This document shows positions 1 to 3,000 of a stretch of DNA of 4,784 nucleotides, one piece after another. Every line of letters starts with the position of its first letter. Position 1 is the stretch's first letter. Position numbers: made by a program. The DNA lies in IMG/VR virus record IMGVR_UViG_2695420632_000012, positions 1 through 4,784 of that record; one strand, 5' to 3'. The stretch is from a virus (Duplodnaviria > Heunggongvirae > Uroviricota > Caudoviricetes).

Positions 1-3000
1 AGGGCGCGGCTGGTAAGAGAGCCTTATAGGCGCATTTGAAAAACCTCCGGCTATGCCGGAGGATATTTATTTGTTTTTCTTTACTTTCATTTTCTGTCGG
101 CGGTGACGGAGACATACATCAGATGGAAAAAATCACAACAGGTGTGTCATACACCACGTCAGCAGTGGGGACGGGATACTGGTTACTGCAGCTGCTGGAC
201 AAAGTCTCTCCGTCCCAGTGGGTGGCAATCGGTGTGCTGGGGAGTCTGCTGTTTGGCCTGCTGACGTATCTGACTAACCTGTATTTCAAAATCAGAGAGG
301 ACCGTCGTAAGGCGGCGCGGGGGGAGTAAAGCGATGAAGAAAAAATACGAACTGGGTGTTAAAGGGATAAATAATTACCCGGATAAGATTACTGTTACTG
401 TTACTGTTACTGTTACTGTTACTGTGGCACTGGAAATTGGTGGGTATCCGTCACTGTTGTTGCCAGATGTGGCGATTAGTCTTGACCGTACTGAAGGAGC
501 CACGCTGGAGTTTTACGAAGCTGAGGCGAAAAAGCAGGCGAAGCAGTTTTTCATGGATGTTGCTGCCGGGTTATGTGAAGGGGATGGTCCGTTGCCGGAA
601 AAGCGCCCCGTAATTTTAGAGGCGCAGGATGTGTTGATAACCTACAGAGGAAAACTACCGGGAATAATTACTGGTTCTCTGAAGACTCCACCGCTGGCCT
701 GAAGACTTAACATATCCAGGGATTTGAAATCGATAAACCCTGATAAATATCCATGAACGCAAAAATCAGATACGGCCTGTCGGCTGCCGTTCTGGCGCTG
801 ATTGGTGCAGGGGCGTCTGCGCCTGAAATCCTCGACCAGTTTCTTGACGAAAAAGAAGGTAACCACACCACGGCATACCGTGATGGTGCGGGGATCTGGA
901 CCATCTGCCGCGGTACCACCCGAGTGGATGGTAAACCTGTCGTCCCGGGCATGAAGTTGTCGAAGGAAAAATGCGACCAGGTTAACGCCATTGAACGTGA
1001 TAAGGCGCTGGAGTGGGGGGAGCGCAATATTAAAGTACCGCTGACCGAACCCCAGAAGGCGGGTATCGCGTCATTTTGTCCTTATAACATTGGCCCCGGT
1101 AAGTGTTTCCCGTCTACGTTTTACAGACGGATTAATGCAGGTGATCTAAAAGGTGCCTGCGAAGCGTTCGCTGGTGGATTAAGGACGGTGGCAGAGACTG
1201 CCGTATCCGCTCAAATAATTGCTACGGTCAGGTATCCCGGCGAGACCAGGAAAGTGCACTGGCGTGCTGGGGAATTGACAGGCAAGTAGAATATTTTGCT
1301 GAAAATGACGTTGGTCAACGCGGGTGGGTAACACGAAATCCTGCGAACTGGCAAAAGCTAAGTGAATAAAAGTAAAACCTCGTTTGTTGGCCGCAAACGG
1401 GGTTTTGTGTTTCTGACCTTGAGTAAGGCAAAGGAGAACATAGGAAAGTATAAACGAATTCTGTTGAGATTGACTATGAAAGACGGCCTTGAACTGAAAG
1501 CGCCTGTAACTGATGACGTCAGCAGAGCGCTGGCTTTTGCTATTAAGTGGGTGGCGGTCGGTATTGCTGTGTCTCCGATGCTGTATGGGCTGGCAAAACT
1601 GGTCATTGCGTTGAAATCGTGAAGAGGATTAAGCATGTCAGACAAGCTCATAACGCTGGCGAAGATCCTCTGTGTAATCGTCGGCATTTCATTTTCACTA
1701 ATATGCTGGTTGCTATTTGCTTTTCCACTGCCTGGCGCGTCTTAACTTTGTCAGGGCTGGTGGGGTGAGGGGGATATGAACCGTGTTCTGTGTGTGGTGA
1801 TTATTGTCCTGCTGGTAGCCTGTGGTGCGCTTGGTCTGGGGCTGAATCATTACCGCGATAACGCCATTACCTACAAAGCGCAACGCGATAAAAAAGCCAG
1901 TGAGCTAAAGCTGGCGAACGTGACAATTACTGATATGCAGGTACGCCAGCGTGATGTCGCTGCACTTGATGCCAGATACTCGAGGGAATTAGCCGATGCG
2001 AGAGCTGAAAATGAAACTCTGCGTGCTGATGTTGCCGTTGGTCGTAAGCGCCTGCGCATCAACGCCAACTGTCCAGGCTCCTTGCGTAAAGCCCCCATCA
2101 CCTCCGGCGTGGATAATGCAACCGGTCCCCGACTGGCAGAAGCCGCTGAACGGGATTATTTCATCCTCAGAGAACGGCTGATGGCAATGCAGAAGCAACT
2201 GGAAGGAGCACAGGAATATATCCGTACCCAGTGTATACCGTGATGTTTTGTTATGAAGGTGTTACTGGTAACGTTAAGGTAATTTAACAAAGAGTCAGTT
2301 CCGGACTTTATAGTGTGCTCAGTTCATGGCCAAAAACGATTTCTGTGATAAATATTTTGAATATTATTTACAGGTAAATAGAGTGGGGCACATGGATAGA
2401 AATATTACAATAGAGTATGAAGTATATGCCCGTATTGTATGGGCAGAGAAGGCAAAAACACGGTAATTCCGTGTGTTGCCATGATACCTGATTGGCAGAA
2501 TAGTTGTTTGGTTTTGAGTATATAGTCAGCGTTTTTTGTTCAGTAATTGCTCCCTTAAAAAATAATAAAATAAGGTGATTATTTTTTTATTATTTAGTTT
2601 TTTTTGTATGTTGTTTTATTGTTTTTGCGTGGTTTGTTTTTTATTGTTATTTCATTAAGGGAAGGTAAATTCAGGATGGCAGTCTGTAGATAATCGGAGG
2701 TCACTTATGCTACATGATCACGTGGCAGAATGTCTGGAGAAAAAAGGACTGTACCGGAGAGCAGCTGAACGATGGGCAAAAGTGATGGTACAGCTAAGTG
2801 ATGACCAGAAAAGAAAAGTGGCGGCACAGAAACGAGCAGAGTGTTTGCGTAAGGCGCGCCGGACTCCGGTTTCACCGGTGAACCTGACCGAAATAAAACA
2901 AGCGGTCAACAGACTACATTCTGAGTTGGGAATGGGATTTGAAGAGCGGCGGGTATTCCGACGATATAAAGGGACAGGAGAACAGAATACGTCCGGAAAC

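What the first reader, a model, noticed from the sequence alone, without database searches (positions are those of the whole stretch)
1290..1775. ~480-bp insert between endolysin and Rz with a terminator hairpin and two tiny membrane-peptide ORFs
In lambda and phage 21 the R and Rz genes are essentially adjacent. Here they are separated by almost 500 bp containing a terminator-like hairpin (1378-1413) and two small ORFs (48 aa at 1476-1622; 36 aa at 1635-1745), each dominated by a hydrophobic helix. The second has a good Shine-Dalgarno. Small hydrophobic peptides in a lysis cassette could be lysis modulators (antiholin-like), a type I toxin-like peptide, or a moron. A terminator inside the late operon also implies that Rz/Rz1 expression depends on antitermination or on an internal promoter.
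Basis: partly seen in the sequence, partly recalled or inferred. Interest (0 to 1): 0.55.

Follow-up and report, generated by a model that had tools for sequence, protein, structure and literature searches.

The report
Decayed accessory module in lysis cassette
The ~480 bases between the phage lysozyme and Rz genes are a widespread, mobile add-on to phage lysis cassettes (a terminator-type hairpin followed by two tiny membrane-protein genes of unknown function), and the copy in this window is a damaged one inside a decaying prophage.

Summary
The gap, the hairpin and both small ORFs are real, but the ORFs are damaged copies of larger conserved genes. Intact relatives encode a 60-aa protein (PHROG 1115; here its ATG at 1440 is ATA) and a 43-aa protein (PHROG 4906; here frameshifted by a 2-bp duplication at 1701-1704). 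The lysozyme is also broken. Both genes are under purifying selection (pN/pS 0.25 and 0.37; third-codon-position bias), each has one predicted transmembrane helix, and at least 80% of the segment is present in 990 of 5426 complete E. coli genomes.

The hairpin (1373-1407) has a terminator shape in both directions. It is kept in 23 sequence variants with three different inner stems. It sits just upstream of ORF1-family genes in unrelated phage backgrounds with five endolysin types. ORF2 instead stays next to Rz.

Best reading: a non-essential lysis-cassette module read by the antiterminated late transcript, whose products act in the inner membrane late in infection. Function is inferred, not shown. 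A more novel reading is not excluded: a roughly 75-nt antisense RNA running from a conserved minus-strand promoter-like site to the hairpin and covering ORF1's ribosome-binding site. No homology to any characterised family, and no paper on these genes, was found.

The parts
753..1289 (+). SAR-type phage lysozyme (endolysin), damaged. One nt is missing between 1166 and 1167, so the last ~40 codons are out of frame. The native stop (1283-1285) is mutated TAA to CAA.
   Evidence: Pfam Phage_lysozyme 9e-20, matching residues 33-140 only. Alignment with intact relatives and translations. PGAP flags the ML35 copy as incomplete.
1290..1372 (+). Conserved non-coding 3' flank of the lysozyme gene. Different inserted modules join at its right end (...AAGTGAATAAAGT|).
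   Evidence: Conserved in all SAR-lysozyme contexts, including Stx phages. Homology to Ant-type cassettes breaks at this point.
1373..1407 (.). Terminator-type hairpin, bidirectional in shape: A-tract, 15-bp stem, U-tract. The window copy carries C to T at 1381 (a G.U wobble), giving -18.3 against -21.3 kcal/mol in relatives.
   Evidence: Fold. 23 variants all fold at -12 to -27 kcal/mol, with three different inner stems. Scanned as a minus-strand terminator in intact relative L002. Present upstream of ORF1-like genes in four distant contexts.
1408..1439 (+). Short leader with Shine-Dalgarno AAGGAG (1431-1436) for the 60-aa ORF1 start. Too short to hold a promoter.
   Evidence: Sequence. Conserved in all contexts. 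No plus-strand promoter-like site.
1440..1622 (+). ORF1, PHROG 1115 family, 60 aa in relatives. It has a basic N-terminal helix, a loop (MKNGLELKAPVT) and a C-terminal transmembrane helix.
   Evidence: phrog_1115 6.6e-42. ATG in 193 of 195 fetched copies, pN/pS 0.25, polymorphic sites 14/5/31 by codon position. The N-terminal motif is conserved in distant relatives. AlphaFold2 helices 3-14 and 25-59. Hydropathy.
1447..1476 (-). Sigma-70 promoter-like site on the minus strand (-35 TAGTCA at 1476-1471, 18-nt spacer, -10 TATACT at 1452-1447), pointing at the hairpin. It would give a roughly 75-nt RNA antisense to ORF1's start codon and Shine-Dalgarno. Hypothetical.
   Evidence: same site in three divergent loci, 9-10 of 12 matches. 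A -10-like hexamer is present in five lineages. Fold of the putative RNA. The site overlaps conserved codons, so it cannot be separated from coding constraint.
1635..1768 (+). ORF2, PHROG 4906 family, 43 aa in relatives, with one transmembrane helix (residues 11-29). Its stop lies 7 nt before the Rz ATG and overlaps the Rz Shine-Dalgarno. In the window an AT duplication at 1701-1704 shifts the frame, and the ORF ends at 1745 (36 aa).
   Evidence: phrog_4906 7.3e-24. Alignment. PGAP 'frameshifted' in ML35. ATG in 161 of 161 copies, pN/pS 0.37. Found directly upstream of Rz with or without ORF1.
1776..2243 (+). Rz i-spanin, intact.
   Evidence: Pfam Phage_lysis 1.6e-45.
1996..2181 (+). Rz1 o-spanin lipoprotein embedded in Rz, intact.
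   Evidence: Pfam Rz1 4.1e-19.

Best explanation
The segment is a degenerate copy of a conserved, horizontally mobile accessory module of phage lysis cassettes. The module consists of (i) an intrinsic-terminator-type hairpin, (ii) a ~30-nt leader with a Shine-Dalgarno, (iii) a 60-aa tail-anchored inner-membrane protein gene (ORF1, PHROG 1115) and (iv) a 43-aa single-pass membrane protein gene (ORF2, PHROG 4906) packed against Rz.

Inferred mechanism. The module has no promoter of its own. During lytic growth the Q-modified late transcription complex reads through the hairpin and co-transcribes ORF1, ORF2 and Rz/Rz1, and close spacing allows coupled translation. Without Q, the hairpin stops any stray transcription from upstream. 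The two proteins insert into the inner membrane late in infection and adjust the last steps of lysis. ORF1 is linked to the endolysin/holin step and ORF2 to the Rz or outer-membrane step. They are not essential, because many working cassettes lack them.

In this window the module is largely inactivated (ORF1 start ATG to ATA, ORF2 frameshift), as is the lysozyme, which fits a decaying prophage.

Shown: the anatomy, conservation, selection, mobility and decay. Inferred: transcription by read-through, membrane insertion, and any role in lysis.
For: REAL GENES. pN/pS is 0.25 (ORF1) and 0.37 (ORF2), against 0.6-2.5 in the other frames. Polymorphic sites by codon position are 14/5/31 and 23/13/26. 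No internal stops occur in 39 and 28 distinct sequences. Lengths are conserved at 60 and 43 aa in Escherichia and Salmonella. Both match PHROG families.

MEMBRANE PROTEINS. Each has one hydrophobic 19-mer, and ORF1 has 8 K/R on the N-terminal side. AlphaFold2 gives helices 3-14 and 25-59, with pLDDT ~88 over the second.

WIDESPREAD AND OPTIONAL. At least 80% of the segment is present in 990 of 5426 complete E. coli genomes. It is intact in isolated phages of the PhiR12/PhiR5 series and absent from K-12 Qin. GC is lower than in the flanks.

LYSIS ASSOCIATION ACROSS BACKGROUNDS. ORF1 relatives lie next to a SAR GH24 lysozyme, a GH108 enzyme, an M15-like peptidase, a PG_binding_1 protein in a myovirus, and a second Phage_lysozyme type. 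ORF2 lies immediately before Rz, or before a 60-aa lipoprotein in cassettes without Rz.

HAIRPIN IS PART OF THE MODULE. In foreign contexts homology starts at its A-tract. There are 23 variants with three inner-stem sequences, all stable. It is present in four distant contexts.

NO PLUS-STRAND PROMOTER after the hairpin.

DECAY..
Against: No experiment or homology links either protein to lysis. Pfam, NCBIfam, PADLOC and PDB sequence searches gave nothing, and no paper on these genes was found. One distant ORF1 relative sits at a prophage end beside tail-fibre genes rather than in a lysis cassette. Gene neighbourhood in mosaic phages may simply reflect an insertion hot spot that tolerates extra DNA. 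A terminator at the upstream end is not the classical moron layout. The simple scan flagged the hairpin as a terminator on the minus strand rather than the plus strand. The Shine-Dalgarno to start spacing for the 60-aa start is short (3 nt), so which start is used remains uncertain.
Confidence: 0.5

Rival explanations
1. Antisense-controlled small membrane protein, similar to a type I toxin-antitoxin pair or to P22 sar/ant. A constitutive promoter on the minus strand inside ORF1's first 13 codons makes a roughly 75-nt RNA that ends at the hairpin, used here as a minus-strand terminator. This RNA pairs with ORF1's Shine-Dalgarno and start codon. It silences leaky expression in lysogens and delays ORF1 synthesis after induction until late mRNA outnumbers it.
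For: A promoter-like site TAGTCA-18-TATACT/TATAAT lies at the same place in the window and in three divergent loci. In each scanned region it is the only promoter-like hit or one of two. A -10-like hexamer is kept in five lineages, including one with different codons. The hairpin is symmetric and is called a minus-strand terminator in L002 (13 pairs, tail ACUUUUAUUC). The putative RNA folds as a 5' stem plus terminator, z -3.65. The hairpin is always 30-45 nt upstream of ORF1-family genes, even in distant phages, which fits an RNA gene tied to its target. The non-homologous small ORF of an Stx2 phage also has its only promoter-like hit on the minus strand, pointing at the hairpin. Precedent: hokW-sokW in Stx2 prophage Sp5 aids phage release (PMC8621323).
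Against: The promoter hexamers overlap conserved codons (Y-K-R and L-T-M), so they cannot be separated from protein constraint. The test on synonymous sites has no power. Hits are 9-10 of 12 and about as frequent as in shuffled sequence (0.6-1.1 expected). No plus-strand promoter for the 'toxin' mRNA is predicted. There is no homology to known type I toxins or to Rfam RNAs. No transcript data were found.
Confidence: 0.2
2. Lysogenic-conversion 'moron' unrelated to lysis. The small membrane proteins would be made in the lysogen and serve the host or prophage, for example through superinfection exclusion or membrane stress tolerance. They sit between R and Rz only because that junction tolerates insertions.
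For: It is extra DNA of lower GC between genes that are adjacent elsewhere. The same junction accepts other cargo: Ant, a different small transmembrane ORF, and lipoproteins. One relative lies at a prophage end. Prophages carrying it are very common in pathogenic E. coli.
Against: No promoter is predicted on the coding strand, and a terminator lies directly upstream. The tight packing with Rz (7-nt gap, shared Shine-Dalgarno) points to late co-expression. The module recurs next to endolysins of five types in unrelated phages. There are no PADLOC defence hits.
Confidence: 0.15
3. The functional element is the hairpin region as a plus-strand RNA. It would be either a 3'UTR-derived small RNA or a stabilising 3' end of the holin-lysozyme message. 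The ORFs would be secondary.
For: The first ~150 nt, including the hairpin, are conserved (~87%) in some 180 Stx-phage records whose downstream ORFs differ. EHEC prophages are rich in small RNAs near the lysis genes (PMC4104026; bioRxiv 10.64898/2026.05.13.724894).
Against: In non-SAR-lysozyme contexts the upstream sequence is unrelated and only the hairpin and downstream leader are shared. The hairpin therefore travels with ORF1, not with the lysozyme 3' end. The ORFs are themselves under selection. Rfam gave no hit. The known Pas, AsxR and AgvB RNAs map upstream of the holin.
Confidence: 0.1
4. Chance ORFs and a chance hairpin in non-functional spacer DNA.
For: Short ORFs are abundant (60 of 25 aa or more in this window). 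The window's own copies are broken.
Against: Selection signature, conserved length and start codons. Protein families reach into Salmonella and distant phages. The hairpin shows compensatory variation.
Confidence: 0.02

Closest known systems
PHROG 1115 (with related 4493 and 3246) and PHROG 4906; RefSeq WP_001303555.1 and WP_001280929.1 ('hypothetical protein')
   Same: Direct sequence membership of the intact forms (E 6.6e-42 and 7.3e-24). PGAP annotates the same two genes in relatives.
   Different: These are database clusters with no assigned function. The window's copies are mutated (start codon, frameshift).
Morons of lambdoid phages (extra genes inserted between conserved late genes; Juhala et al. 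2000, as cited in PMC4104026)
   Same: Extra, lower-GC DNA between two genes that abut in related phages. The cargo at this junction varies.
   Different: Classical morons carry their own promoter upstream and a terminator downstream and are expressed in the lysogen. Here the terminator is upstream, no promoter is predicted, and the genes are packed against Rz.
Accessory membrane proteins of lysis cassettes (antiholins such as lambda S107 and S21-71, T4 RI, phage Mu 'releasin' gp25; named from my own knowledge, with PMC9239132 seen only as an abstract)
   Same: Small membrane proteins encoded inside the lysis cassette and dispensable for lysis as such. ORF1 has two conserved in-frame Met codons (M1 and M13) whose products would differ by a basic N-terminal extension, which is reminiscent of dual-start holin/antiholin pairs.
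   Different: No sequence similarity. No charged C-terminal domain. Not restricted to SAR endolysins. No functional data.
Type I toxin-antitoxin loci and phage cis-antisense regulators (hokW-sokW of Stx2 prophage Sp5, PMC8621323; P22 sar/ant and lambda OOP/cII, reviewed in PMC12197685)
   Same: A hydrophobic protein of 60 aa or fewer. A candidate ~75-nt antisense RNA covers its ribosome-binding site and ends at a hairpin with a U-tract.
   Different: The antisense RNA is only predicted. There is no toxin promoter, no homology to Hok or other toxin families, and toxicity is untested.

Membership tests
Intrinsic (Rho-independent) terminator | G+C-rich stem-loop followed by a U-tract | tested here: met
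   15-bp stem at -18.3 kcal/mol, followed by UUUUGUGUUU counting the last stem Us. Relatives reach -21 to -27 kcal/mol. On the minus strand the scan reports 13 pairs and tail ACUUUUAUUC in L002.
Intrinsic (Rho-independent) terminator | Structure maintained in evolution rather than sequence | tested here: met
   Three inner-stem versions (GUUUG/CAAAC, GAUUG/CAGUC, GGCUG/CAG(U)CC) all pair. Further different hairpins occupy the same place in distant loci.
Intrinsic (Rho-independent) terminator | Stops RNA polymerase, and is read through by Q-modified polymerase | not testable with these tools
   Needs in vitro transcription or Term-seq.
Holin / antiholin | At least one transmembrane domain | tested here: met
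   One hydrophobic 19-mer in each protein. The AlphaFold2 model of a 60-aa ORF1-family member has a long helix at 25-59.
Holin / antiholin | Highly charged hydrophilic C-terminal tail | tested here: not met
   The ORF1 C-terminal flank is ALKS. The ORF2 flank is [14 protein letters not shown], with one charge.
Holin / antiholin | Match to a holin family profile | tested here: not met
   No Pfam or NCBIfam hit. The PHROG hits are 'unknown function'. The cassette's own holin is at 123-329 (Phage_holin_2_1, 8.8e-33).
Holin / antiholin | Dual-start motif giving two products | tested here: inconclusive
   M1 and M13 are both conserved in ORF1, and the extension is basic. Which start is used is unknown.
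Spanin (i-, o- or unimolecular) | i-spanin: N-terminal transmembrane domain plus a long periplasmic coiled-coil. o- or u-spanin: a lipobox. | tested here: not met
   ORF1 has a C-terminal transmembrane domain with only 4 residues beyond it. ORF2 has 14 residues beyond its domain. Neither has a lipobox. Canonical Rz/Rz1 follow at 1776-2243.
Type I toxin-antitoxin | Small hydrophobic protein (about 60 aa or fewer) | tested here: met
   60 and 43 aa, one transmembrane domain each.
Type I toxin-antitoxin | Antisense or nearby small RNA gene with its own promoter and terminator, complementary to the toxin mRNA | tested here: inconclusive
   A minus-strand promoter-like site is conserved and a minus-strand terminator shape is present. 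The site overlaps conserved codons, and there are no expression data.
Type I toxin-antitoxin | Toxin gene has its own promoter | tested here: not met
   No plus-strand sigma-70-like site between the hairpin and ORF1 or Rz in the window, L002, L128 or L199. This is a simple consensus scan only.
Type I toxin-antitoxin | Homology to a known toxin family (Hok, Ldr, Ibs, TisB, ShoB, Zor, DinQ) or antitoxin RNA | tested here: not met
   No Pfam or NCBIfam hit. No Rfam hit at E up to 1.
Type I toxin-antitoxin | Toxicity on expression | not testable with these tools
   Needs cloning and induction.
Moron (lambdoid phages) | Extra DNA between genes that are adjacent in related phages | tested here: met
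   K-12 Qin rrrQ and rzpQ overlap. The junction carries varied cargo.
Moron (lambdoid phages) | Base composition differs from the flanks | tested here: met
   GC 0.465 against 0.542 (lysozyme) and 0.528 (Rz).
Moron (lambdoid phages) | Own promoter upstream and terminator downstream; expressed from the prophage | tested here: not met
   The terminator is upstream. No plus-strand promoter is predicted. The ORF2 stop lies 7 nt from the Rz ATG with no terminator between them.
PHROG 1115 / PHROG 4906 | Significant full-length profile match | tested here: met
   Intact relatives: 6.6e-42 (1-60 of 60) and 7.3e-24 (1-43 of 43). The window's 36-aa ORF2 matches only residues 1-28 (3.4e-12).

The most novel reading that the evidence does not exclude
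The unit [bidirectional terminator hairpin + ORF1-family gene] is a self-contained regulatory cassette found in siphoviruses and myoviruses. A short cis-antisense RNA starts inside the first codons of the small membrane-protein gene and ends at the hairpin, masking the gene's ribosome-binding site. The same hairpin blocks sense read-through. A potentially membrane-damaging peptide would thus be double-locked in lysogens and released only when antiterminated late transcription swamps the antisense RNA. That would be a type-I-toxin-like timer built into phage lysis cassettes. A second small protein (ORF2) would act specifically with the spanin or outer-membrane step.
Probability: 0.2. Interest if true: 0.65.

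Novelty: new variant of a known kind. Interest (0 to 1): 0.4.

Why it matters
Lysis cassettes of lambdoid and Shiga-toxin phages are usually described as holin, endolysin and Rz/Rz1. About one complete E. coli genome in five carries this extra pair of selected small membrane-protein genes inside the cassette, and nobody appears to have studied them.

If they tune lysis timing or the outer-membrane step, they would affect phage burst and, in Stx phages, toxin release. If the antisense-RNA reading is right, it would add a new RNA-controlled membrane peptide to the lysis pathway.

For this particular window the practical message is more modest. The copy is broken, in a prophage whose lysozyme is also broken, so experiments should use an intact relative.

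Tried and rejected
NO HITS.
- Rfam at E up to 1 over the whole window.
- Pfam, NCBIfam and PADLOC for ORF1, ORF2, the Stx-phage small ORF and the 60-aa lipoprotein.
- PDB sequence profiles: nothing meaningful.

NO NAMED HOMOLOG. K-12 Qin has no insert, so there is no named K-12 homolog.

KNOWN EHEC/EPEC PROPHAGE SMALL RNAS. AsxR, AgvB and PasA-D were considered for the hairpin and rejected. They map upstream of the holin, and Rfam's AgvB and AsxR models do not hit the window.

SPANIN OR HOLIN IDENTITY. Considered and rejected on topology and tails.

SAR-SPECIFIC 'RELEASIN' ROLE. Judged unlikely, because the module also accompanies GH108-type and M15-type endolysins.

EXPRESSION EVIDENCE. Peptide strings in the Sakai Ribo-seq supplements, promoter strings in the EDL933 TSS supplements (files are truncated and hold coordinates only) and lysis-gene names in the Hfq-CRAC supplements all gave nothing usable.

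LITERATURE. Searches for accession or PHROG numbers and for lysis-cassette small proteins found no study of these genes.

METHOD LIMITS.
- Column-based covariation counting on the hairpin alignment was abandoned, because a bulged U offsets the register. Variants were folded individually instead.
- A synonymous-site test of the antisense promoter had no power: 2 informative sites.
- Counts of loci include the same IMG/VR contigs fetched more than once, so the statistics rest on distinct sequences only.
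Full report
SETTING. The window is the late-gene end of a lambdoid prophage of pathogenic-type E. coli. In order it carries:
- a phage-21-type holin (123-329, Phage_holin_2_1);
- a DUF1327/YdfR gene (334-702);
- a lysozyme (753-1289);
- the segment in question (1290-1775);
- Rz (1776-2243) with embedded Rz1 (1996-2181);
- a PerC-family gene (2707-3021);
- NleH pseudogene pieces;
- an EspS-like effector gene (3803-4678);
- the start of a terminase small subunit.
No complete E. 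coli genome matches the window exactly. The closest are strain ML35 (99.2%) and several 60-100 kb plasmid records.

CHECKING THE OBSERVATION. The 486-nt gap, the hairpin and both ORFs are present. The hairpin is best placed at 1373-1407: a 15-bp stem, centroid -18.3 kcal/mol, z -2.5 against shuffles, with an A-tract before it and a U-rich tract after it. In K-12 Qin the homologous rrrQ and rzpQ genes overlap, so this really is extra DNA.

Alignment with relatives shows the window is lesioned in four places:
1. One nt is missing from the lysozyme between 1166 and 1167. This is unique to the window and puts the last ~40 codons out of frame.
2. The lysozyme's normal stop (1283-1285) is CAA, as in ML35.
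3. The conserved ATG of the first small gene (1440) is ATA.
4. An AT duplication at 1701-1704 frameshifts the second small gene.
NCBI's pipeline marks the ML35 lysozyme 'incomplete' and its second small gene 'frameshifted'. In an intact relative it calls a lysozyme, a 60-aa protein (WP_001303555.1), a 43-aa protein (WP_001280929.1) and Rz.

ARE THE ORFS REAL GENES? Yes.
- The intact proteins match PHROG 1115 (6.6e-42) and PHROG 4906 (7.3e-24), both of unknown function.
- Protein searches found 118 and 100 clusters, all from Escherichia or Salmonella, with conserved lengths.
- From about 200 fetched loci I took the distinct nucleotide sequences. ORF1 (39 sequences) has polymorphic sites 14/5/31 by codon position and pN/pS 0.25, against 0.58 and 2.5 in the other frames. 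ORF2 (28 sequences) has 23/13/26 and 0.37, against 0.87 and 1.7.
- ATG starts 193 of 195 ORF1 copies and 161 of 161 ORF2 copies.

Each protein has one hydrophobic span. ORF1 has a basic N-terminal part (8 K/R) and only four residues after the span. ORF2 has a 10-residue N-terminus and a 14-residue tail. AlphaFold2 models a 60-aa ORF1-family member as helix 3-14, a loop, and helix 25-59 with pLDDT ~88.

An exhaustive profile search of 1.84 billion representatives found only 24 relatives at E up to 0.001, so the family is narrow. Distant members keep both the core (MKNGLE..APVT...AFAI) and the N-terminal motif x-Y-K/R-R/K-x-x-x-R-L-x-M, which supports the longer start.

THE HAIRPIN BELONGS TO THE MODULE. 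Where ORF1 lies in unrelated surroundings, homology begins exactly at the hairpin's A-tract. Twenty-three distinct hairpin versions all fold stably (-12 to -27 kcal/mol). They use three different inner stems (GUUUG/CAAAC, GAUUG/CAGUC, GGCUG/CAG(U)CC), so the structure is conserved, not the sequence. Four distant ORF1 relatives from metagenomes and genomes each have a comparable, sometimes unrelated, hairpin with U-tract 30-45 nt upstream of the gene. The window's copy has a C to T change that weakens it slightly.

CONTEXTS. The following architectures were seen:
- (i) Holin, YdfR, SAR lysozyme, [hairpin-ORF1-ORF2], Rz/Rz1. This is the window's type.
- (ii) Two holin-like proteins, a GH108 endolysin, [hairpin-ORF1-ORF2, or ORF1 plus other small transmembrane ORFs], a 60-aa lipoprotein (PHROG 7528), then packaging genes, with no Rz.
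- (iii) An M15-like peptidase, a 93-aa gene, [hairpin-ORF1], a lipoprotein.
- (iv) SAR lysozyme, Ant, [hairpin-ORF1], a remnant, Rz.
- (v) Stx2 phages: SAR lysozyme, [the same hairpin plus a different small transmembrane ORF, PHROG 6632], Rz.
- (vi) SAR lysozyme, [a different terminator hairpin plus Ant], ORF2, Rz, with ORF2's start overlapping the ant stop.
- (vii) A myovirus: PG_binding_1 protein, hairpin, ORF1-like gene, two small lipoproteins, tail sheath.
- (viii) Hairpin and an ORF1-like gene overlapping the start of a membrane-anchored Phage_lysozyme.
- (ix) One case beside tail-fibre genes at a prophage end.
ORF1 therefore keeps company with the hairpin and, usually, an endolysin. ORF2 keeps company with the gene for the outer-membrane step. 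The junction after the lysozyme is a hot spot where each inserted module begins with its own terminator.

DISTRIBUTION. 1751 of 5426 complete E. coli genomes match the segment and 990 carry at least 80% of it. Seven isolated phages (PhiR12/PhiR5 series) carry it at ~90% identity, and the one inspected (PhiR12_3) has both ORFs intact. About 180 Stx-phage records share only the first ~150 nt, which include the hairpin. GC is 0.465, against 0.54 and 0.53 in the flanks.

HOW IT PROBABLY WORKS. No plus-strand promoter-like site lies between the hairpin and Rz in the window or in three relatives. ORF1's stop is 12 nt before ORF2's ATG. Intact ORF2 stops 7 nt before the Rz ATG, inside its Shine-Dalgarno. 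From the established behaviour of lambdoid late operons (Q-modified polymerase ignores terminators; general knowledge), the simplest model has three parts:
- The late transcript reads through the hairpin and expresses ORF1, ORF2 and Rz/Rz1 together.
- The hairpin blocks unmodified polymerase in lysogens.
- The two peptides act in the inner membrane at the end of infection, as dispensable modulators of lysis.
Only the anatomy and the evolutionary evidence are shown. Expression, localisation and function are inferred. I give this 0.5.

THE MORE UNUSUAL POSSIBILITY. The hairpin is symmetric, and the consensus scan calls it a terminator on the minus strand in an intact relative. In the window and in three divergent loci, the only promoter-like hit in the scanned region (or one of two) is on the minus strand over ORF1 codons 3-13 (TAGTCA, 18 nt, TATACT or TATAAT; 9-10 of 12 matches), aimed at the hairpin. 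A -10-like hexamer is found there in five lineages, one of which uses different codons.

The implied ~75-nt RNA would be complementary to ORF1's start and Shine-Dalgarno, and it folds as a small stem plus terminator. This resembles P22 sar/ant or type I toxin-antitoxin pairs. One such pair, hokW-sokW, is reported to aid release of the Stx2 phage Sp5 (PMC8621323).

The evidence is weak, however. The hexamers overlap conserved codons, hits are as frequent as in shuffled sequence, and I found no transcript data. I put it at 0.2.

WHAT IT IS NOT.
- Not a holin or antiholin by the usual criteria: no charged C-terminal tail and no family match.
- Not a spanin: no periplasmic domain and no lipobox.
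- Not a known type I toxin, defence protein or Rfam RNA.
- Not one of the known EHEC/EPEC prophage small RNAs, which lie upstream of the holin.

VERDICT. The genes already exist in databases as unnamed families, and no study of them turned up in the searchable literature. This copy is decayed. Interest is moderate (0.4). It would rise if deletion experiments or RNA end-mapping in an intact relative showed a lysis-timing role or the antisense RNA.

Noticed in passing
window 1160-1175 and 1277-1289: The lysozyme gene has lost one nt (GCG-TTCGC against GCGATTCGC in every relative), and its normal stop TAA is CAA. The Pfam match stops at residue 140 of 178. This is either a pseudogene in a decaying prophage or, for the single-base deletion, a sequencing error.
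   Followed up: yes
window 389-425: A perfect hexanucleotide tandem repeat (TTACTG x 6.2) lies inside the DUF1327/YdfR gene and encodes (Val-Thr)n. It is a likely length-variable site.
   Followed up: partly
window 44-80: A terminator-type hairpin (CCUCCGGC-UAU-GCCGGAGG plus a U-rich tail) lies just upstream of the holin. A 2026 preprint (Zhu, Shabalina, Storz) places the prophage small RNAs PasA and PasC in this position, between the sialate esterase and the holin. The window may start inside such a small RNA gene. Rfam gave no hit.
   Followed up: partly
L128 2843-3037, L131 2967-3149, L155 2841-3023 (and L096, L102): In GH108- or M15-type lysis cassettes that lack any Rz-like gene, a 60-aa lipoprotein (PHROG 7528; lipobox LVGC; 30-residue mature part with three Cys) occupies the spanin position directly after ORF1/ORF2. 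It might be an uncharacterised outer-membrane lysis factor or an exclusion lipoprotein.
   Followed up: partly
L241 734-756 (also L262, L266, L285): In cassettes with lysozyme, Ant, ORF2 and Rz, the Ant module begins with a different plus-strand terminator hairpin, at the same junction where the ORF1 module begins. Each insert at this hot spot therefore starts with a terminator. ORF2's start overlaps the ant stop codon.
   Followed up: partly
L131 2733-2965, L089 2733-2965, L203 325-737: Some cassettes carry arrays of two or three small transmembrane ORFs. These include short ORF1-like paralogues ending in the motif (A/V)(I/V)RWW immediately before the next gene. The same C-terminal RWW ends the unrelated small ORF of Stx2 phages (L004 2574-2792).
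   Followed up: no
window 1-4784 as a whole: The nearest copies of the whole window (99.0-99.2%) are the ML35 and B19374 chromosomes and several 60-100 kb plasmid records from STEC and bovine isolates. This effector-carrying prophage fragment (PerC-family gene, NleH pseudogene, EspS-like gene) is therefore plasmid-borne in some strains.
   Followed up: no
window 2579-2625: A very AT-rich stretch with degenerate T-rich repeats (GC 0.33 over 2244-2706) lies upstream of the PerC-family regulator gene. It may be a regulatory or silenced region.
   Followed up: no
window 3803-4678: A 291-aa ORF is annotated in relatives as secretion protein EspS. It has no Pfam match at E up to 1.
   Followed up: no
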